Source of the DNA: a virus
UHGV virus genome: UHGV-0289455
DNA length: 35,338 nt
Strand: one strand, 5' to 3'
Shown: positions 1 to 32,903 of the stretch, one piece after another
Layout: each line of letters begins with the position of its first letter
How positions within the stretch are numbered: the first letter of the stretch is position 1
Notes under the pieces: model-generated
Database searches by the model: none
Told to the model about the DNA's origin: nothing
Seen by the model: the letters and a program-made list of their open reading frames with translations, nothing else
Position numbers and translations under genes: made by a program

Positions 1-231
1 TCCTTTATATTCAATGCATTAAGTTTGTTTTTGAGTGGTTTTGCCGTTTAAGGTAACGACGTTATAGATCCTATCAAAATCAATCAATTCCATTCTGGTT
101 TTGGAGAAAGATTTTTCGAGAGCTTCGGTCTTTAACTAAAACTGATTGCGTATAATCCCAATACCCCTCCCCGACTATCTGAATGGTCGGGGAGGCACTT
201 CAAGCACAAAATATCATCCCTGCGCCGTTGA

Positions 232-4804: not shown

Positions 4805-7800
4805 TCAGCTAATCGTGATGCCTGCAGTGGCTTTCTTCATCACAACAACCAGCAAATCGCTGATACTTGCTGTGGGATACCAGCCATTTACCCACCATGC
4901 TGATACAGAAAACTCCAGCGTCATGTGGCCGCGACCAGCAGGCATATCAATAACACCACTGTAAACCAGCGTATTATCCATCGCGGTACGGTTATAAATT
5001 TCAGCACCGTTTTTCTTCACTATCAGGCGGCATGACGAATAAGTATCGCTGTTCTCCCGCTCATGTCTGGCACCGCTGAAAGCCACCGCCGGAATAACAA
5101 TCTGCCGGTTAAACGGCTGATCGTCATAAACCCTGACGGTAATGGTTCCTGATGGCCAACGCTTCGGTGCACGGGAGTCACGAGGGAAAGCCTTACCCAC
5201 TGTTTTAACGAGATCGCCTTCAATCTGGTTTGCAGACAGTTTCCCTCTGATGACACAGTTCTCGTTAATGGTGACATTATTGAGCGTGCCGGTATTCGCC
5301 GTGATGGCTCCACTGATATCCGCATTGCGGGCTGTCAGCCTGCCATCCGGCGTCAGGGAAAACGTCGGAGGATTGCCGGATGACGTGATGCTCACCGCAA
5401 ACAGTCGCTTCAGGAACACGTCGTTCATGAACAGCTGATTCCCCTGCGCCACAAACAGCGGCGTGGTGTTGCCGTTCTCCGGGGTAATCATCGCAATGCG
5501 ATCGGCCTGCAGCAGAATGTTACTCAGGGTCTGACCATCAACATCCTCAATCCCCACGCCAATCCCGGCCACATAGGGAATACCGTTTTTTGTTTTCTGC
5601 ACCTTCAGCATATACATGGCATTCAGCTCATTGCGCGTGTCTGACTGAACCCGCTGGATTTGCTGTATGGTCACGGCCTGGTCACCCAGTTTTTTATCCG
5701 TGGTCGAGGTAATTTCACTCCCTTTTTTATCCACGTACTGGCGGACCTGTGCTATCTGTCGGGCGTTTTCTGACTGCCCCTGGCTGACAGTCTGTGAGAT
5801 TTCACTGCTAACCCGGTCCACTTTCTGGCTCATCTGCGCGATGGCCAGTGTCTGGTCCTCATTCTTTTTCGCAACCAGCTGCGTGAGGCTGTTTTCCGCC
5901 TCCCCGATTTTCCGGGTCACTTCTGCGATATCCGTGTCCATCCGCTGACGGATGTCTTCTTCCAGTTGCGTGACCTCCGTACGCAGCGCTGAAGCATCAA
6001 TGCGCTCTTTCAGTGCCTGACCCAGAAGCGTCTCATCTATCAGCCCCCGGAAAATTTCCAGATACCCTTCACCATCATTGCTGGGCTGCCCGCTGGCTTC
6101 CACAAAAGCAGATTTTCCCACCAGGTTGACGCTTCGCACGTAAAACCAGAAATCCGTCCCCGGCTTAATCCGGCTCCCCTGGACAGTCCACTGACTGCCG
6201 GACCCCAGATAACGGGCAGATTTTTCCACCTGTGCCGTGTTCGTGATGCGTTTTTCTGAGAACCAGAATTCAAACTGTATCGTCGGATCATACACCGCAA
6301 GACGCGGGACCGCCGTTATCTGAAAATACCCCGGCGTCAGCTCAATGGTGGCGGGTTTTGCAGGTGCGTTAATCCGGAAGGTGGTGGTGGCAGGTTCACC
6401 CTGCTGGCCATAACTGTTTATCGCCCGCACCGTCAGGGTGTATTCCCCCAGTGGCAGGCCACTGAAACGGTGCTCCGTGTCTGCGGTGATGGCGGTGGTC
6501 ACCAGTCTGGCATCCGTTCCCTTACCACTGGTCAGGCGCAGACTGAAGCGCACGCCCTTCACCACCCGCGGCGTGTCCCATTTAGCCTGCGCCAGATACT
6601 GGCCGTCAGCTGCGCTCACCTCCACCGTCAGGTGCTGTACTGCCGGTGGGATGACGCTGTTCAGGGAGCCTGACTGCGGCTCAAAGCGGGCACCGTTATC
6701 CACGATGGCTTCTTTTTCCGGTACGTGCTGCACCGCCGTGATGGCAAAGGTGCCGTCCGTGTTTTCCCGGATGGAGACACAGCGGAACAGGCGACGGCGC
6801 AGTGACGGCAGGGAGAGTCCCCACACACCGTATGTCTCCACACCATCCGGCAGGGTGCTGACCTGTATCCGGTCAGGCGCGGGGTGTGCGGTGATGGCCA
6901 CGCTCGCCGGCTTACCGCTGCCGTTAATCAGATTAACAGTGGCCGTGCCGGTCTCCGGCAGTGTCACCTCCCGGTCCAGCGTCAGGATACGGCTGGCGGC
7001 ATCGATGGACAGGACACGTCCGCCGGTCATGGTCCCGGCATAGTCGTTATCACAGATTTCAATGATGTCACCGGGTGTGTGCCGCAGCCCCTGAGACCCG
7101 AGCGTGAAATCCACCGTCTGCGTTTCCAGCAGTTCGGTCTTTATCACCCACAGCCCGGCACGGTGGGCCTGACCGCGGCTGGTACAGCCGAACGCGTCCA
7201 TCTTCAGCAGGTTGCGTCCGTAGCGCAGTATGGCTTCCGGGTCTTCCACCAGTTCCGTGGAGGTCTGCCAGCCGTTCTGCGGGTCGGTGTAATTCACCTC
7301 CACCGCCGTGTGCCGGTCCTTCAGGGCACTGAAGCTGTAGCGGAACCCCACGCCGTTATCATCCACCACCACATCGCTGTTGGTGTACGGCCACACCACA
7401 TCCGACGGGCGGTCCTGAACGAACGTCAGCGTCTGACCGTTCCATACCGGCATACAGCGCATCGCAGAGCAGAAATCACTGAGAACGTCCCACGCCTTAC
7501 GCTGTTGTGCCAGGTACGCATTAAAGGTCATCCGCGGCTCGGTCCCCCCGAAACCATCCGGGACCGTCTGGTCGCAGTACTGCCCGATGGCATACAGCGC
7601 CCACTTGTCCACATCCGCCGCCCCCAGACGTTTTCCCATGCCGTAGCGCGGGTGAGTCAGCATGTCCCACAGGCACCAGGCCGGGTTGTTGCTGTATGCC
7701 GGTTTCAGACTGCCGTCCCAGATACCACTGTACGTGCGTTTTTCCGGGTCATAGTTTGACGGCACCTGGATGATGCGACCGCGGATATGGTAGTTCACCG

Positions 7801-8497
7801 TCATCTGCTGGCCGCCGAACTGCTCCGCATCCACCTGCAGCCCCACAATGGCCGTGTTCGGGTAGCACTGTTTCACATCGATGATTTCGGTGTATGACGA
7901 CCACAGCGTCTTATTCTGCAGCTGGTCCGTGGTGCTGTCCGCCGTCTCCCTGACCATCCGGATGTTAAAGGGCCGGGGAGGCAGATTATCCAGAATCACC
8001 GAGGCCAGGAACTGTGAGGTGGTCTTGCCGTTAATGGTGACGTCCTTTTCCGTCACCCAGCGGCCATTACGCTGTAACTGAATCAGAATCCGGACAGAGG
8101 AAGGATTACGGTCGCCCCTTGACGTGGTCTGCACCAGTGACTGCACCCCGAAGGTAACCCGCAGGCGGTCAATGTTCGCGGACGTAATGGTGCGCGTCAC
8201 CGGTTTTGCCTTCGTCACTTCCACGCCCAGTCCGGTTTCAGCTCCGGAGGACTCAAAGCCTTCCGGTGGTGTCTGCTCCTGCTCCCCGGCACGCCAGACC
8301 GCGGTCACACCGTGTATCACGGGATTACCGTCCGTGTCCGTCAGCGGGGTTTTGTTCACCAGGATACTCTGCAGTCCCTTCACCGGACCTTCTATCGGTC
8401 CCTCACCAATCGCATCAATCACACTCATCATCTGCGTGGATTTGAGATTATCCTTCGCCTCACGAGGCGTGTGTGCCTTACCGCCACCTTTTCCCAT
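4805..8497 (-). CDS. J: central tail fiber / host specificity protein J
   Basis: 1230 aa. The C-terminus ...[25 protein letters not shown]...[77 protein letters not shown] is near-identical to the lambda J receptor-binding end as I recall it. Confidence 0.95.
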
Positions 8498-8587
8498 ACA
8501 GCCTTCCCCTGAATAAATTAACCGCCACTTGCCATTCCGTACAGAAGTCGGATATCCTTCGCCCGAAAAGCATGAAACACATTTCTG

Positions 8588-8636
8588 CCATGCTAAAGAG
8601 AAACCCCGGTATCAGCAGATACCGGGGTTTTCTTTC
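8588..8636. terminator. strong hairpin with T-rich flanks on both strands (bidirectional terminator) in the I-J intergenic island
   Basis: Perfect 10-bp stem ccccggtatc/gataccgggg with a 4-nt loop; TTTTCTTTC follows on plus, TTTCTCTTT on minus. Confidence 0.5.
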
Positions 8637-8702
8637 ATGCCCACCGATAATCCTGTTGGTTAAAACCGGTAATGGCATAAAAATTCTGAATATCTTCACA
8701 TT

Positions 8703-8730
8703 TTCACAAAATCCCTGTGGCACTTATAAT
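8703..8730 (+). promoter_or_regulatory. sigma70-like promoter (TTCACA, 16-bp spacer, TATAAT) reading away from J
   Basis: -35 at 8703-8708 (5/6 to TTGACA) and a perfect -10 TATAAT at 8725-8730. Confidence 0.4.
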
Positions 8731-8736
8731 TTCTCT

Positions 8737-8828
8737 GCGTTAATTTTTTTTGTCGTGACATAAGAATAATTATCTATAGTTGATCTTCGTAACGCTCCCG
8801 CAGCTCCGCAACTCTGCGGGATTTTTTT
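8737..8828 (+). ncRNA. candidate small RNA (about 90 nt) between tail genes J and I
   Basis: Predicted start just downstream of the promoter above; ends at the 8797-8828 terminator. No ATG-initiated ORF inside. Confidence 0.3.
8797..8828 (+). terminator. rho-independent terminator on the plus strand, convergent with the end of gene I
   Basis: Stem cccgcag/ctgcggg with a 10-nt loop followed by TTTTTTT; the T-tract abuts the gene I stop codon at 8836-8838. Confidence 0.5.
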
Positions 8829-8835
8829 ATTCTTT

Positions 8836-9516
8836 TTACCCCTGCCGCCCGATAACCACGACCTTTCCGCCCCCGCCTTCATCACGGGTGCTGATGTCCT
8901 GGGATATACGGCGGGAGCCAACCAGCATTTCCCCGTAAGGCACCGGCATCGGGTTCCCCTGGGCAATCATGTTATCCAGCGAGGAAAAGTACGTGTTCTG
9001 TCTGCCGTTATCCGTTACGCGGTAATCCGGTGTTTTTGCCTTCGGGGCCAGCATCTGTGCCACACCGCCCAGTATCATGCTGGCCCCCAGTGAAAACAGC
9101 ATCGTGGTGGCAGAAAAACCACCGGCTGCCAGGGCTGAACCCCATAACGCCATCGAGGCACCGGCCGTGAAGAAAGAGCCCACGATGGCTGCCGCCCCCA
9201 GCACAATCTGCAGTCCGCCCTTTCCGGCTCCGGCCAGTCGCGGCACAATGTGGATGACCGTTCCCTCACCCAGCTGTTCGTGAAGACGGGCGTACACCGC
9301 CTCCGGTGCCGTGTCATCACCGGCAATACGTATCTGGTACCAGCCTTCGTTCATCTGACGGCGAAAGCCCGGCACCTGTAACGACAGGGCACGGATGGCT
9401 TCCGCTGCCGTGTTCACATACAGGCTGAGGCGGCGGCCAAATCGTTGCAAATCCCCGTGAAGGCAGATGCGTGCCAGTGGCGGTGACGCCAGACAGAATG
9501 CGTTCGTCGTTGCCAT
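8836..9516 (-). CDS. I: tail tip assembly protein I
   Basis: 226 aa; ...ARICLHGDLQRFGRR...VIHIVPRLAGAGKGG...NTYFSSLDNMIAQGN resembles lambda gpI. Confidence 0.9.
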   Translation of the reverse strand: MATTNAFCLASPPLARICLHGDLQRFGRRLSLYVNTAAEAIRALSLQVPGFRRQMNEGWYQIRIAGDDTAPEAVYARLHEQLGEGTVIHIVPRLAGAGKGGLQIVLGAAAIVGSFFTAGASMALWGSALAAGGFSATTMLFSLGASMILGGVAQMLAPKAKTPDYRVTDNGRQNTYFSSLDNMIAQGNPMPVPYGEMLVGSRRISQDISTRDEGGGGKVVVIGRQG

Positions 9517-17118: not shown

Positions 17119-18147
17119 TTATTTCACCTGTACCACCACAAACTCATCCGGATCCGGCAGCACCATCAGCGGTGCGGACTGCGTCATGGTGAATTCACGG
17201 GCCGGATCGCCCACAGTCAGCCAGTGTTTCGGATAACGGGAAGAGGCCACCACACCTTCGGACAACGCCTGCGCATCCTGAATGGCACCATAGCAACGAA
17301 TGCCCTCTGCTGCCGTATTCCCCAGGACCAGTGTGCCCTCCGGCAGATAACGTTTTTCGGTACCGTCCTCTGCCACATAAGACGTTTTCGCCACCACAAT
17401 GGCCAGATCGCCGTAATACCCCTTGAAGGACACCACTGCGCCCAGATCTTTCACTGCCGTTTCGAGTTGTGAATTTGAGCCGCGACGGGTATCCAGTTTT
17501 TCGCGGAACAGCTTAAAGCCATTCAGCAGACGCCAGACCGTACCGTCCATAATGGCGATATTCACAAGGCCGCTGGCCTGATCGCAGTAGAGGTCAATAT
17601 CATGCGTCGGATCAAACGTATCACGGTCCTGCTCAGACCATTTTTTACCGTCAGCCTGCTCAATGTTATTTCCTTCAGAGCGCCCGAAATCCACCTCGAC
17701 AGTATCAAACTGATCCCCTTCCATGGTGTATTTGCCATACAGCACGGCATTCACCGCCTGCATTTCTTCCACCTGGACAATGGCGTGCTCTTCCTGTTTG
17801 AGGTTATCGGTAATGATACGCAGACGACGGTAGGCTGGGTCGTTCAGCTGAGCCGGATCTTCACCAGGAAGGCGCTCAACCGCCTGCTGGTAATTAAATT
17901 CGTGTTTGGGCTTGACGTAGCCCGGACGTAACACGCGGGTTTCACCACCGCGATGGCGAAGCACTTTTCCTTCAACGATCGGGGAGACATAGGCCGCCAC
18001 CGGCGTTTTTCCGGTAATTTTGTCCAGCATCACCTCTTCGGTGTGGAAATTCACCGTACGGCGGAAAAACAGCTCCAGAAACAGCGCACGGAATTTAACT
18101 TTTTGTTCGGTATAACCGAGTAACTGGCGGGTCGTAAACAATCCCAT
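17119..18147 (-). CDS. E: major capsid protein E
   Basis: 342 aa, ...YVSPIVEGKVLRHRGG...PGYVKPKHE...RRLRIITDNLKQEEHAIVQVEEMQAVNAVLYGKYTM...TRRGSNSQLETAVKDLG...DPDEFVVVQVK is lambda gpE-like over its full length. Confidence 0.95.
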   Translation of the reverse strand: MGLFTTRQLLGYTEQKVKFRALFLELFFRRTVNFHTEEVMLDKITGKTPVAAYVSPIVEGKVLRHRGGETRVLRPGYVKPKHEFNYQQAVERLPGEDPAQLNDPAYRRLRIITDNLKQEEHAIVQVEEMQAVNAVLYGKYTMEGDQFDTVEVDFGRSEGNNIEQADGKKWSEQDRDTFDPTHDIDLYCDQASGLVNIAIMDGTVWRLLNGFKLFREKLDTRRGSNSQLETAVKDLGAVVSFKGYYGDLAIVVAKTSYVAEDGTEKRYLPEGTLVLGNTAAEGIRCYGAIQDAQALSEGVVASSRYPKHWLTVGDPAREFTMTQSAPLMVLPDPDEFVVVQVK

Positions 18148-18175
18148 AAATCAGTTCCTTTCATTCAGAAATCAG

Positions 18176-18197
18176 TCAGGCCACCATGGTGGCCTGA
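18176..18197. promoter_or_regulatory. perfect 22-bp palindrome (hairpin) between D and E
   Basis: tcaggccaccatggtggcctga is its own reverse complement; it lies between the D stop and the E start. Confidence 0.4.
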
Positions 18198-18204
18198 TAA
18201 CGTG

Positions 18205-18552
18205 TTACGGCAGAGCCGCGTGACTCAGGGCTGTACCGGCAAAGGCATTTGCCTTTTTGTGTTCATCCACACTGTCAGGCCAGCGGATTGCCTCCGTCGC
18301 AAAGGTCCCCGACTTGTAATAGGTCAGCACCGTCTCTGTGCCTTCAAGCGGCAGTACCAGTATGCCAACCGCACTACCGGCTTTCTGTCCATCCCAGACA
18401 ACCAGTTTCCCGCTGGCTTCATCCAGCATCAGGGGCGTCAGTGCCGGTGTTGCCTGAGAAATCCCGCTGCTGCCTGTGGCGGTATGAGCCGGATCATTAC
18501 CGGCAAAAATACGTACTTCTGCACGTTGTTCAGTGATGGTTTTCGTTACCAT
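18205..18552 (-). CDS. D: head decoration protein D
   Basis: 115 aa, ...GNDPAHTATGSSG...TPLMLDEASGKLVVWDG...VGILVLPLEG...YKSGTF matches lambda gpD. Confidence 0.93.
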   Translation of the reverse strand: MVTKTITEQRAEVRIFAGNDPAHTATGSSGISQATPALTPLMLDEASGKLVVWDGQKAGSAVGILVLPLEGTETVLTYYKSGTFATEAIRWPDSVDEHKKANAFAGTALSHAALP

Positions 18553-18588
18553 ATTGTAAAAACCTCATATTGATGGTCAGCACTGACT

Positions 18589-20094
18589 TCATGGCATGGC
18601 CATGAGCATTTTCACGTCCGCATCACCGTCTGCTGACGTCTGTGACACGCCACCCCGCACCGCTGCCGGTGAATGATTCGCCATGAAATGTTCAAACAGG
18701 GCGGTTGTGGATGCAGAGACCGGTTCTGCTTTATCCGGCGATGAGGACAGAATGTCGCGGGCAGCCTCCACCGTCATTCCGGGAAACGCCGCCAGTTTTT
18801 CAGCCTGCGCCTCAGCCCCTTTTGCCTCATCCAGAGCCATGATCTGATCACGGAGTGAGGGTCCGGCATCCGCCAGTGGTGCAGCCGCCAGGATCGGGCG
18901 GGCTTTTTCCACCGTCATCTCCGGCATCGCCGCCAGCGTTGCCGCCAGTTGTTCACGACCTTTAGCCTCTTCACACGCCATAATGCGATCGGCTTCACTC
19001 TGCGTGGATGCCACCGGCTGCTGTGGTGCTGCCGCGGTCAGAATCGCCCGGGCCTGTTCAACGCTCATGCCCTGTTGTCCTGCCAGCATCGTGGCAAGGT
19101 GTTCACGTCCTTTCGCTTCCTGACACGTCAGGATCCCCATCACTCGCTGGTTCTCCTGCGCGGCAGCTTCCGTTGCAGTTAATTGCGGCATAGTGCCTCC
19201 TGTATCATGTGTGTTCAGCGCCGCAGCCATCACGCTGATGGCATCCGACGCATTGATTAATTCATCCGCCAGCCCGGCCTCAATGCCGGACTGACCTTCA
19301 AAAACGGCGGCCTCTGTTCCCGTGACTGCATCAACAGACAGACCGGTATACATCGCCACTTTTTCGGCAAACATCCGGCGCGCCGCATCAATCCGCTGCT
19401 GCATGTCCTGGCGAACCTCTTCCGGCAACGCTTCAAACTGATTGCCATCCACCTTGTGCGCCCCTGAGTAAATCAGCGTGATATCCACACCGGCCTGCGC
19501 CAGATGACCGGCATAGCTGACATGGCTCATCATCACGCCAATGGAGCCGATACGGGATGTCTGGGTAACCAGCCGTCGGGAGCAGGCCGACGCCAGCAGC
19601 ATGGCTGCAGAACAGGCCGTGTCATTGCACAGTGCCCAGACCGGCTTCTGCTGACGGAGTCGGTAAATCATGTCAGCACAGTCAAACGCACCGGCGGCCT
19701 GCCCGCCCGGACTGTCAATGTCCAGCAGTACACCCCGCACCTGGCTATCCGCCATTGCCTGCTGAAGACAGGCGACAATGCCGTCATAGCCTGTCATTCC
19801 GGAAAATGGCCGCATACCCCCCAGCCGGTGCACCAGCGTGCCTGTCACCGGCAGTACAGCAATACCGTTCACCACCCGGTAAACACGGGCCGGTCGTTTA
19901 CCTCCGGCCATGTACTCGTCCGTTTCAGCCAGCATTCCGGGAGCATCAAGCTGTACCTGCTGTTGTGGTACCGAAAGACTTGCTGCCCCCATCTCGCGCC
20001 CGAGCGCGCAAAAGAAAACCCGCGCATAGGCGGGCTCCAGAAGCAGCGGTTCATTGAATGCTGCTGCAATAATGTGTGAAAGATTACGTCTCAC
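18589..20094 (-). CDS. C: head maturation protease C (S49/ClpP-like), containing the in-frame scaffold (Nu3) region, with a triplicated C-terminal module
   Basis: 501 aa against about 439 in lambda gpC as I recall. The N-terminal two-thirds are lambda-C-like (NEPLLLEPAYARVFF..., TGSIGVMM...). The C-terminal third has three tandem 40-45-aa repeats of the motif EAKGRE..L...P.MTVE.AR.IL...P, which I remember as single-copy in lambda. Confidence 0.88.
   Translation of the reverse strand: MRRNLSHIIAAAFNEPLLLEPAYARVFFCALGREMGAASLSVPQQQVQLDAPGMLAETDEYMAGGKRPARVYRVVNGIAVLPVTGTLVHRLGGMRPFSGMTGYDGIVACLQQAMADSQVRGVLLDIDSPGGQAAGAFDCADMIYRLRQQKPVWALCNDTACSAAMLLASACSRRLVTQTSRIGSIGVMMSHVSYAGHLAQAGVDITLIYSGAHKVDGNQFEALPEEVRQDMQQRIDAARRMFAEKVAMYTGLSVDAVTGTEAAVFEGQSGIEAGLADELINASDAISVMAAALNTHDTGGTMPQLTATEAAAQENQRVMGILTCQEAKGREHLATMLAGQQGMSVEQARAILTAAAPQQPVASTQSEADRIMACEEAKGREQLAATLAAMPEMTVEKARPILAAAPLADAGPSLRDQIMALDEAKGAEAQAEKLAAFPGMTVEAARDILSSSPDKAEPVSASTTALFEHFMANHSPAAVRGGVSQTSADGDADVKMLMAMP
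18700..19150 (-). repeat. three imperfect tandem repeats (about 120-135 bp each) inside gene C
   Basis: Visible at protein level (CQEAKGREHLATMLAGQQGMSVEQARAILTAAAP / CEEAKGREQLAATLAAMPEMTVEKARPILAAAP / LDEAKGAEAQAEKLAAFPGMTVEAARDILSSSP) and as reiterated DNA segments. Confidence 0.7.
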
Positions 20095-29063: not shown

Positions 29064-29180
29064 TTGACAATGAGAACTGTTTTCATTTAGAAATGATTGA
29101 TGTCGAAAACATCTTTTCTTTACATTCTCCATTGGGATTACCTCCGCCAGCTTCCATTCCTGCCGCTGGCGGCTTTTTTT
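29064..29180 (+). ncRNA. candidate opposite-strand transcription unit (TTGACA -35, weak -10, terminator) in the nanS-p 3' intergenic region
   Basis: Perfect TTGACA at 29064-29069; a 7-bp stem (cgccagc/gctggcg) plus TTTTTTT at 29145-29180 on the plus strand. No convincing ORF. Confidence 0.2.
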
Positions 29181-31739: not shown

Positions 31740-32186
31740 GGAGTTTACTCACATCTGACAAAATCAATATAAACAGCCCCTCCGGAGAGGGGCTGGAGAG
31801 TGGCGCTATGTGCCATTGCATGGTGCCGGGTGCCTCCCGGTGAATTCAGTACCAGCACCTGAATCCGCGATTATCCCATATACCTACTCGCTGATTGCCC
31901 CTCCGCACAGGGGGATTCACCATGCCAGTTTCTTTTAACAAACTCCCCGCAAACCAGACAACAGTCAACCGCCTGAATTGTGAAGTATTTAAAAATTTCT
32001 CCCGCTAACTGATACCCGGCTAACAGTCTGGCGTTTTCTTTTTCAGCAACGGGAAAGCAACAACCACCACACCCGCCACCAGCACACCGTCAGCCAGCAC
32101 TGACATTATCCGGCTGCTGCAATGCCACTCACAAAAACAGTAAGCAATCACTTTTTACCGTAACAAGTGATAATCCAGATATGTAT

Positions 32187-32653: not shown

Positions 32654-32727
32654 CGCGCTGTACTGGATTCGAACCAGTGACCGATTGCTTAGAAGGCAAT
32701 TGCTCTGTCCGGCTGAGCTAACAACGC
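32654..32727 (-). tRNA. tRNA-Arg (anticodon UCU)
   Basis: Minus strand GCGTTGTTAGCTCAGCCGGACAGAGCAATTGCCTTCTAAGCAATCGGTCACTGGTTCGAATCCAGTACAGCGCG: cloverleaf with a GTTCGAATC T-loop and a TCT anticodon loop; CCA not encoded. Confidence 0.85.
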
Positions 32728-32827: not shown

Positions 32828-32903
32828 TGGTGGCCCTTGCTGGATTTGAACCAGCGACCTGGCGATTATGAGTCGCTCGCTCTCACCACTGAGCTAAAGG
32901 GCC
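32828..32903 (-). tRNA. tRNA with CAU anticodon (tRNA-Ile2/Met type, ileZ-like of Stx-phage tRNA clusters)
   Basis: Minus strand GGCCCTTTAGCTCAGTGGTGAGAGCGAGCGACTCATAATCGCCAGGTCGCTGGTTCAAATCCAGCAAGGGCCACCA, with encoded CCA; resembles E. coli ileX as recalled. Confidence 0.85.

What the first reader, a model, noticed from the sequence alone, without database searches (positions are those of the whole stretch)
8588..8837. Promoter- and terminator-bracketed island between tail genes I and J: candidate small RNA
As I recall, lambda I and J are adjacent. Here about 340 bp intervene, containing a perfect 10-bp-stem bidirectional terminator (8604-8636), a near-consensus plus-strand promoter (TTCACA, 16 bp, TATAAT) and a second plus-strand terminator whose T-tract overlaps the gene I stop. 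Together they predict a roughly 90-nt non-coding transcript made against the direction of the late operon, so potentially expressed from the prophage. Prophage sRNAs that sponge host sRNAs are known in pathogenic E. coli; whether this is one cannot be told from sequence.
Basis: seen in the sequence. Interest (0 to 1): 0.55.

Follow-up and report, generated by a model that had tools for sequence, protein, structure and literature searches.

The report
PasB-family prophage small RNA gene

Summary
The I-J spacer is 338 bp (8498-8835), against 60 bp in lambda. It holds a plus-strand promoter (TTCACA-16-TATAAT), a terminator with a U7 tail ending at 8828, and a strong hairpin at 8604-8627.

The promoter-to-terminator unit (about 8674-8835) is not new. 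It sits at the same place and in the same orientation as PasB of EPEC E2348/69, an 83-nt Hfq-dependent sRNA with 37 RIL-seq partners, none of them sRNAs. It very probably also matches EcOnc22/23/24 of EHEC Sakai (about 85 nt, destabilised without Hfq).

A covariance model built from 14 other alleles, without this one, hits 8737-8828(+) end to end (86 bits, E 6e-15).

The window allele is only 70% identical to published PasB, with a longest shared word of 15 nt. The 2026 PasB survey (blastn, word size 28) would therefore have missed it. It keeps the promoter, an (ARN)3 motif, the AUCUUC block proposed as seed, and the terminator. It has lost a UCC block that is invariant in the other alleles.

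Modules of this family occur in 1855 of 5426 complete E. coli genomes. The hairpin belongs to a separate mosaic segment. The function of the family is unknown, and the sponge idea is not supported.

The parts
4805..8497 (-). Tail tip / host specificity gene J (context; lower boundary of the spacer)
   Evidence: ORF of 1230 aa. Annotated gpJ in the identical ABU 83972 prophage.
8498..8603 (-). J leader, part of the mosaic 'PPompW-type' spacer segment 8498-8673. Not part of the conserved sRNA unit.
   Evidence: This segment is shared with prophages that carry a different sRNA allele and is absent from most other family members.
8604..8627 (.). Perfect 10-bp hairpin (loop AGCA) flanked by an A-run (8595-8603) and a T-run (8628-8636). 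Terminator-like on both strands. Probably the positional equivalent of the resident I-J spacer hairpin.
   Evidence: Folds at -25.6/-26.4 kcal/mol, z = -7.4. Lambda's 60-bp spacer has a hairpin plus T-run on the late strand. Other alleles carry a non-homologous hairpin at the same place, followed by a U-run on the late strand, with one compensatory C-G to T-A change.
8680..8700 (+). Conserved AT-rich upstream zone with a CRP-like dyad TCTGA-N6-TCACA (8685-8700). A low-confidence idea.
   Evidence: The half-sites are invariant across alleles while the central bases vary. A one-mismatch match is not significant on its own: 3 found against 1.34 expected in the window.
8703..8730 (+). Sigma-70 promoter: -35 TTCACA (8703-8708), 16-bp spacer, -10 TATAAT (8725-8730)
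   Evidence: 11 of 12 matches. The -35 block TCTTCACATTT is invariant in the 8 alleles of alignment A2 and differs by one base in a ninth, E. coli M1. The -10 hexamer keeps A2 and T6 in all of them.
8737..8828 (+). Predicted PasB-family sRNA, 92 nt. The 5' end is uncertain between 8737 (7 nt after the -10) and about 8751 (the equivalent of the coverage-based 5' end of EPEC PasB).
   Evidence: A covariance model built without this allele hits 8737-8828 end to end at 86.2 bits, E 6e-15. It is 70% identical to the 83-nt PasB. The fold is -21 kcal/mol, z = -2.4.
8762..8770 (+). [quoted passage not shown]
   Evidence: An (ARN)>=3 run lies at the same relative place in 6 of 7 alleles scanned. The role of ARN motifs is taken from PMC4104026 and is an inference here.
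8780..8790 (+). UUGAUCUUCGU. The AUCUUC core (8783-8788) is conserved just upstream of the terminator and is the likely seed.
   Evidence: ATCTT is invariant in 14 other alleles. [quoted passage not shown] In the window allele's predicted fold it is partly paired.
8797..8828 (+). Rho-independent terminator: CCCGCAG / CTGCGGG stem, 10-nt loop, then A and U7 (the Hfq proximal-face module)
   Evidence: All 7 stem pairs are conserved without covariation in 14 alleles.
8836..9417 (-). Tail assembly gene I (context; upper boundary). Stop codon at 8836-8838.
   Evidence: ORF 8836..9516. RefSeq annotates a 582-bp gene in the identical prophage.

Best explanation
Window 8674-8835 is a self-contained sRNA gene of the PasB / EcOnc22-24 family. 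It sits as a 'moron' between the stop codon of tail gene I and the hairpin that precedes J, and is transcribed against the late operon.

A sigma-70 promoter (8703-8730) should fire in the lysogen and give a 78-92-nt RNA ending in the U7 tail at 8828. By analogy with its relatives, this RNA is stabilised by Hfq through the terminator U-tail and the (ARN)3 motif. It would act in trans on mRNAs by base pairing, most likely through the conserved AUCUUC block upstream of the terminator.

Shown here: homology, position, and intact promoter and terminator. Shown only for relatives: expression, Hfq dependence and mRNA partners. Inferred: the seed, and expression in this strain. The targets and physiological role are unknown for the whole family.
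For: - Position. EPEC PasB (NC_011601.1, 1466343..1466261, minus strand) lies between the tail assembly gene and gpJ, antisense to them. Every phage or genome relative I fetched whose flanks are annotated lies next to the tail assembly gene, antisense, and between it and J wherever J is still there.
- Sequence. The promoter, the GCGTTA start region, an A-rich run, ATCTTC and the terminator align across 8 and then 14 alleles. The model R1, built without the window allele, hits 8737-8828(+) at 86.2 bits, E 6e-15. The next hit has E 0.08.
- Experiments on relatives. PasB was confirmed on Northern blots, shows Hfq-dependent stability, and is higher in the non-activating condition. It has 37 unique RIL-seq partners: 30 CDS or 5'UTR and 0 sRNA. 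It is RNA2 in 99-100% of chimeras.
- EHEC. EcOnc22 is about 85 nt and destabilised in the hfq deletion strain. The Hfq-CRAC peaks for EcOnc22, 23 and 24 lie on the plus strand of the I-J spacers of Sp15, Sp14 and Sp11. After the +137..146 coordinate shift measured at AgvB1, the peaks fall on the sRNA body.
- Not coding. Alleles differ by indels of 1, 2, 5, 6 and 8 nt.
- Absent from lambda's 60-bp spacer.
Against: - There are no expression data for this allele or strain.
- It is only 70% identical to published PasB.
- It has lost the UCC(N)U block that is invariant in the other 14 alleles.
- Its predicted fold partly buries AUCUUC. Its targets, and even its activity, may therefore differ.
- The terminator stem shows no covariation, so the structure rests on conservation and folding energy alone.
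- No target motif was reported for PasB, and its seed is only proposed.
- The EcOnc22 link depends on a coordinate offset measured about 1 Mb away.
- There is no Rfam family for it.
Confidence: 0.8

Rival explanations
1. A cis-antisense regulator. The RNA is perfectly complementary to the I-J spacer of the late polycistronic mRNA. Its main job would be to pair with that mRNA, from its own prophage or from a related superinfecting or induced phage, and so alter processing, stability or J expression. This could coexist with a trans-acting role.
For: The gene lies next to I and antisense to the tail operon in every copy fetched, and between I and J wherever J is present. EHEC genomes carry up to 11 copies. 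The body stays next to I even where J and the promoter were replaced by sodC.
Against: The fixed position may simply reflect inheritance by recombination through the flanking tail genes. The late operon is silent in lysogens, where the sRNA is seen. EPEC PasB has 34 partners that are CDS, 5'UTR, 3'UTR or intergenic regions, and less than 2% of its chimeric fragments involve accessory-genome partners. The J ribosome-binding site is more than 230 nt from the paired region in this window.
Confidence: 0.15
2. An anti-sRNA or sponge, like AgvB and AsxR, that sequesters a core-genome sRNA.
For: Prophage anti-sRNAs exist in EHEC and carry ARN motifs in a variable 5' part with a conserved 3' part (PMC4104026). 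This family also has a variable middle and a conserved 3' end.
Against: EPEC PasB has 0 sRNA partners among 37 and behaves as RNA2, the sRNA position, in 99-100% of chimeras. Neither the AgvB (RF02702) nor the AsxR model matches, even at E <= 10, although AgvB is found readily in Sakai. The location is different (tail operon, not the site downstream of PR') and so is the length (78-92 nt against 51-60 nt).
Confidence: 0.05
3. There is no functional RNA. The island is spacer DNA whose hairpins merely terminate or stabilise tail-gene transcripts, or it encodes a small protein.
For: PhiR12_5 carries an annotated 32-aa hypothetical ORF across the module. Mechanical ORFs cross the island. The hairpin at 8604-8627 does look like a late-strand terminator.
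Against: The promoter and terminator are conserved as a unit in 1855 genomes. Homologues give discrete Hfq-dependent RNAs. Indels that are not multiples of three rule out a conserved reading frame. On the late strand, the complement of the sRNA terminator is not followed by a U-run.
Confidence: 0.05

Closest known systems
PasB (pathogenicity-associated sRNA B) of EPEC O127:H6 E2348/69, prophage PP6 (Pearl Mizrahi et al. 2021, PMC8550237; surveyed by Zhu, Shabalina and Storz 2026, bioRxiv 10.64898/2026.05.13.724894)
   Same: It lies in the same spacer (I to J) with the same antisense orientation. The -35 block, the -10 TATAAT, the GCGTTA start region, the A-rich ARN run, the UUGAUCUUC block, the CCCGCAG/CTGCGGG stem and the U7 tail are all shared. 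The Northern probe for PasB matches the window terminator apart from the loop.
   Different: It is 70% identical over the sRNA, and the longest shared word is 15 nt. The middle block differs: AAGAAUAAUUAUCUAUAG in the window against AACAAAAACAACUCCUUCACA in PasB. The terminator loop also differs. The upstream hairpin and J-leader segment are of another type, and the spacer is 338 bp against 240 bp. It falls outside the 'few nucleotide differences' reported for PasB variants.
EcOnc22 / EcOnc23 / EcOnc24 of EHEC O157:H7 Sakai prophages Sp15, Sp14 and Sp11 (Tree et al. 2014, PMC4104026, Table S2)
   Same: They are plus-strand Hfq-CRAC peaks in I-J spacers, about 85 nt, destabilised without Hfq. 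The spacers hold a module with the same architecture, 76% identical to the window sRNA.
   Different: The 5' and middle parts differ, and the -10 is AATAAT. The identification rests on a coordinate shift between record versions that I measured only at AgvB1. The papers I could search do not link EcOnc22-24 to PasB.
AgvB / AsxR anti-sRNAs of Stx and related prophages (Rfam RF02702, RF02703)
   Same: They are prophage-borne, Hfq-binding short RNAs with their own promoter and terminator, an ARN motif, and allelic variation upstream of a conserved 3' end.
   Different: There is no sequence or model match. The locus differs (downstream of PR', not the tail operon). They are shorter (51-60 nt). They act on sRNAs, whereas EPEC PasB pairs with mRNAs.

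Membership tests
PasB / EcOnc22-24 family of I-J spacer sRNAs | Gene lies between tail assembly gene I and tail tip gene J of a lambdoid prophage, antisense to them | tested here: met
   Window: I 8836..(-), J ..8497(-), sRNA on the plus strand. PasB lies in the same arrangement.
PasB / EcOnc22-24 family of I-J spacer sRNAs | Sequence and structure profile of the family recognises the candidate | tested here: met
   Model R1, built from 14 alleles without the window allele, gives 86.2 bits, E 6e-15, model positions 1-97 of 97, at 8737-8828(+).
PasB / EcOnc22-24 family of I-J spacer sRNAs | Own sigma-70 promoter with the conserved TCTTCACATTT -35 block | tested here: met
PasB / EcOnc22-24 family of I-J spacer sRNAs | [quoted passage not shown] | tested here: met
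   No covariation was seen because all 7 pairs are invariant.
PasB / EcOnc22-24 family of I-J spacer sRNAs | Conserved single-stranded block just upstream of the terminator (the proposed seed) | tested here: inconclusive
   The AUCUUC sequence is present, but it is partly paired in the window allele's minimum-energy fold. The seed itself has not been validated experimentally.
PasB / EcOnc22-24 family of I-J spacer sRNAs | Near-identity to E2348/69 PasB as used in the 2026 survey (blastn word size 28, query cover above 75%) | tested here: not met
   70% identity and a longest shared word of 15 nt. The survey method is described. This is a criterion of that survey's search, not of homology.
PasB / EcOnc22-24 family of I-J spacer sRNAs | Expressed as a discrete RNA of about 83-85 nt whose level depends on Hfq | not testable with these tools
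   Shown only for the EPEC and EHEC alleles.
AgvB/AsxR anti-sRNAs | Match to Rfam RF02702 or RF02703 | tested here: not met
   No hit at the gathering score or at E <= 10. As a positive control, AgvB was found in Sakai at 96.5 bits.
AgvB/AsxR anti-sRNAs | Located in the moron site downstream of PR', convergent with a second sRNA | tested here: not met
   The candidate lies in the tail operon.
AgvB/AsxR anti-sRNAs | Pairs with and antagonises a core-genome sRNA | not testable with these tools
   For the EPEC homologue, RIL-seq lists 0 sRNA partners among 37. There are no data for this allele.

The most novel reading that the evidence does not exclude
The I-J spacer sRNA may be a much larger, polymorphic family than described. 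It occurs in about a third of complete E. coli genomes, at up to 11 copies per genome, sometimes as tandem arrays, and it joins PasB with EcOnc22-24. Its alleles keep the promoter, the AUCUUC block and the terminator but swap the middle block.

Under this reading, the window allele has lost the otherwise invariant UCC(N)U block and so has a different target set in extraintestinal strains. The RNA might also act in cis on the I-J junction of late mRNA of its own or related phages, under cAMP-CRP control through the conserved TCTGA-N6-TCACA dyad.
Probability: 0.15. Interest if true: 0.5.

Novelty: new member of a known kind. Interest (0 to 1): 0.3.

Why it matters
The window adds no new kind of element. 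It does give three modest points.

- A validated prophage sRNA family is far more widespread than reported. It is in 34% of complete E. coli genomes here, including ABU 83972 and CFT073-type extraintestinal strains. The 2026 survey found any Pas sRNA in 12.4% of E. coli genomes, because it searched only for near-identical copies.
- PasB of EPEC and EcOnc22-24 of EHEC appear to be one family. I did not find this stated in the papers I could search.
- The family has no Rfam model and is never annotated in RefSeq. A covariance model like R1 would fill that gap, and the allelic series (conserved AUCUUC, variable middle) offers a natural experiment for finding the seed and targets.

The function remains unknown.

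Tried and rejected
- Rfam. Nothing in the island reached the gathering score. At E <= 10 only terminator-driven noise appeared, such as SSRC34_2 and STnc310, all far below their thresholds.
- Public collection scans.
  - Promoter pattern on IMG/VR viral contigs (12 hits) and on JGI metagenome contigs (112 hits): all were chance matches with no module downstream.
  - 3'-module pattern on 185,579 species-representative genomes: only two Escherichia albertii contigs were real. This agrees with the reported restriction to Escherichia and Shigella.
- Covariation. None was available in the terminator; all 7 pairs are invariant. No 5' structure is shared between alleles.
- Small-protein reading. Rejected because of frame-breaking indels.
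- PasA and PasC. Their probe sequences do not occur in the window at up to 3 mismatches.
- CRP site. The match is not significant on its own, so I kept it only as an idea.
- PasB targets. I could not extract the individual PasB target list from the RIL-seq tables within the look-up cap, so I could not test complementarity to AUCUUC.
- Minus-strand promoter. The consensus scan found none in the island, so I could not say what the hairpin at 8604-8627 terminates.

Full report
**1. What is in the sequence**

The window is a lambdoid prophage with its tail genes on the minus strand. J is 4805..8497 and I ends at 8836, which leaves a 338-bp spacer at 8498-8835. The window is identical to a prophage of E. 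coli ABU 83972 that lies next to the foc/sfa-iro island. RefSeq gives the same gene limits there and annotates nothing in the spacer.

The plus strand carries these features:
- A promoter: TTCACA (8703-8708), 16-bp spacer, TATAAT (8725-8730), 11 of 12 matches.
- A terminator: CCCGCAG (8797-8803) pairs with CTGCGGG (8814-8820), followed by A and U7 ending at 8828.
- A perfect 10-bp hairpin at 8604-8627, flanked by an A-run and a T-run, with z = -7.4 on either strand.

One correction is needed. The U7 tract stops 8 nt short of the I stop codon, and only a second T-run overlaps the stop.

**2. What it is**

PasB was discovered by RIL-seq in EPEC E2348/69. It is listed at NC_011601.1 1466343..1466261 on the minus strand, 83 nt, in prophage PP6. 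Its Northern probe is AATCCCGCAGTGATCGCGGAGCT (PMC8550237 Table S6). The reverse complement of that probe is the window's terminator apart from the loop.

In the E2348/69 record, PasB lies between the tail assembly gene and gpJ and is antisense to both. The two spacers align from the AT-rich zone upstream of the -35 through to the U-tract. Every relative I fetched from phage and E. coli records whose flanks are annotated lies next to the tail assembly gene, antisense, and between it and J wherever J is still present.

As a formal test I built a covariance model from 14 distinct alleles, leaving out the window allele and its one-base-shorter twin from strain JNEC-KY173. With filters off, across the whole window on both strands, it hits 8737-8828(+) end to end at 86.2 bits, E 6e-15. 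The next hit has E 0.08.

**3. Experimental standing of the family**

For PasB in EPEC:
- It was confirmed on Northern blots, shows Hfq-dependent stability, and is higher in the non-activating condition.
- It has 37 unique RIL-seq partners: 30 CDS or 5'UTR, 4 3'UTR or intergenic, and 0 sRNA.
- It is the second RNA in 99-100% of chimeras, which is the signature of a canonical mRNA-targeting sRNA.
- Its function has not been elucidated.

For EHEC Sakai, Table S2 of Tree et al. 2014 lists three related entries:
- EcOnc22 in Sp15: about 85 nt on Northern blot, destabilised without Hfq.
- EcOnc23 in Sp14 and EcOnc24 in Sp11, given as its homologues.

Their Hfq-CRAC peaks are on the plus strand of the I-J spacers of these three prophages. 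The table uses the older Sakai record. At AgvB1, the shift from the old record to the current one is +137 to +146. That shift places the EcOnc22 peak at about 2902851-2902920, inside the module's predicted RNA at about 2902838-2902926. I therefore regard EcOnc22-24 as members of the same family, with the caveat that the offset was measured about 1 Mb away. The papers I could search do not make this link.

**4. How this allele differs**

The window RNA compares with other alleles as follows:

| Compared with | Identity |
|---|---|
| Published PasB (83 nt) | 70% (longest shared word 15 nt) |
| EcOnc22 type | 76% |
| CFT073 allele | 83% |
| An O111 allele | 90% |

The 2026 survey of Pas sRNAs used blastn with word size 28 and required more than 75% query cover. 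It reports only 'a few nucleotide differences' among PasB variants. This allele would not have been found by that search.

Across alleles, the following are conserved:
- The -35 block TTCTGAA(N3)TCTTCACATTT.
- A -10 hexamer that keeps A2 and T6.
- GCGTTA at the predicted start, followed by a U-run.
- An (ARN)3-5 run, AAGAAUAAU in the window at 8762-8770.
- (A/G)AUCUU just upstream of the terminator, at 8783-8788 in the window.
- The terminator itself.

[quoted passage not shown] The window allele has lost a UCC(N)U block that is invariant in the other 14 alleles. Its predicted fold also partly pairs AUCUUC. Its target range may therefore differ.

The terminator stem shows no covariation, and no 5' structure is shared between alleles. 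Indels of 1, 2, 5, 6 and 8 nt between alleles exclude a conserved reading frame.

**5. Distribution**

- The 162-bp module matches 5902 places in 1855 of 5426 complete E. coli genomes, with up to 11 per genome.
- The exact window allele (99% or more) is in 28 records.
- The E2348/69-type spacer is in 1106 genomes.
- In the phage collection it occurs in 125 records, mostly Stx-converting phages.
- Among one genome per species for 185,579 species, the strict 3' module was found only in Escherichia albertii.
- Scans of the viral and metagenome collections gave only chance matches.

**6. The rest of the island**

Only about 8674-8835 is shared by the whole family (query positions 177-338). The segment 8498-8673, which includes the hairpin, is a separate mosaic piece. 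PPompW-type prophages combine it with the canonical PasB body.

Other alleles carry a non-homologous hairpin at the same place (ACAGGCACCC-CGGA-GGGTGCCTGT). On the late strand it is followed by a U-run, and it shows one compensatory C-G to T-A change. Lambda's 60-bp spacer also has a hairpin plus T-run on the late strand, and the family model finds nothing in lambda.

My reading is that the sRNA module is a moron inserted between the I stop codon and a resident I-J hairpin. What that hairpin does is unexplained. The consensus scan found no minus-strand promoter in the island.

**7. Mechanism and rivals**

The best-supported reading is an Hfq-dependent, trans-acting sRNA made from its own promoter in the lysogen. 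The steps shown here are homology, position, and intact signals. The steps shown only in relatives are expression, Hfq dependence and mRNA partners. The seed, and expression in this strain, are inferred.

- The cis-antisense rival cannot be excluded. The RNA is fully complementary to the I-J part of the late mRNA, and the gene lies next to I and antisense in every copy fetched. No data bear on it.
- The sponge idea is disfavoured by the RIL-seq partner classes and by the lack of any AgvB or AsxR match.
- A conserved dyad TCTGA-N6-TCACA at 8685-8700, with variable central bases across alleles, resembles a CRP site. This would fit PasB being higher in the non-activating condition (I believe that is LB, against glucose-containing DMEM for the activating one, but I did not check the growth media in the paper). 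However, the match is not significant alone, and by my arithmetic its centre lies about 44.5 bp upstream of the predicted start at 8737, not at the canonical class II position of -41.5. It stays an idea.

**8. Verdict**

The element is a new, divergent and unannotated member of a known, experimentally validated sRNA family whose function is still open.

Noticed in passing
window 31765-31954 (-): Full-length match to Rfam STnc100 (132 bits). The 2026 preprint relates STnc100 structurally to PasD, so this prophage carries at least two known sRNA families.
   Followed up: partly
window 32654-32727 and 32831-32903 (-): Two prophage-borne tRNA genes (68 and 72.5 bits).
   Followed up: no
window 29065-29180 (+): A TTGACA box followed about 75 nt later by a strong terminator (CCGCCAGC...GCTGGCGG plus T7). 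It lies between the SASA esterase and DUF1378/holin genes, antisense to both. This is the position where PasA, PasC and AgvB-type sRNAs sit in other prophages. The family model R1 gives only a weak hit there (19 bits), there is no Rfam hit, and the PasA and PasC probe sequences are absent. It is a possible further sRNA gene.
   Followed up: partly
L167 (E. coli CB6837, NZ_OZ392453.1) 464-554, 697-783, 913-1007: Three tandem modules with the same promoter architecture. The first is EcOnc22-type (98.5 bits). The third is divergent with a changed seed region (47.9 bits). The second has a different body and a different terminator stem, CTCCCGT/ACGGGAG (17.8 bits). The sequence after the first and third modules is closely similar, which is consistent with tandem duplication.
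   Followed up: partly
L169 (E. coli Z1323CEC0002) 406-502 and L043 (E. albertii) 1782-1872: The sRNA body and terminator are intact (79-85 bits), but in L169 J and the family promoter are replaced by a sodC gene and its terminator hairpin on the same strand. L043 shares that upstream sequence and hairpin. The sRNA is either orphaned or now read from sodC.
   Followed up: partly
L157, L158, L159 (Sakai Sp15, Sp14, Sp11 I-J spacers): EcOnc22, EcOnc23 and EcOnc24 of Tree et al. 2014 map to these spacers and appear to be the same family as PasB. I did not find this equivalence stated in the papers I could search.
   Followed up: yes
window 8604-8627; L172 (lambda) 1262-1285; the spacers of L003-L007, L157 and others: Every I-J spacer examined, including lambda's 60-bp one, has a stable hairpin followed by a U-run on the late strand just upstream of J. 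There are three non-homologous sequence types and one compensatory pair change. Its role, whether attenuation before J or a 3' end stabiliser, is unexplained.
   Followed up: partly
window about 17436-20020 (L170 28939-31523): RefSeq marks the portal gene of this prophage as frameshifted in ABU 83972, so the prophage is probably defective while the sRNA module stays intact.
   Followed up: no
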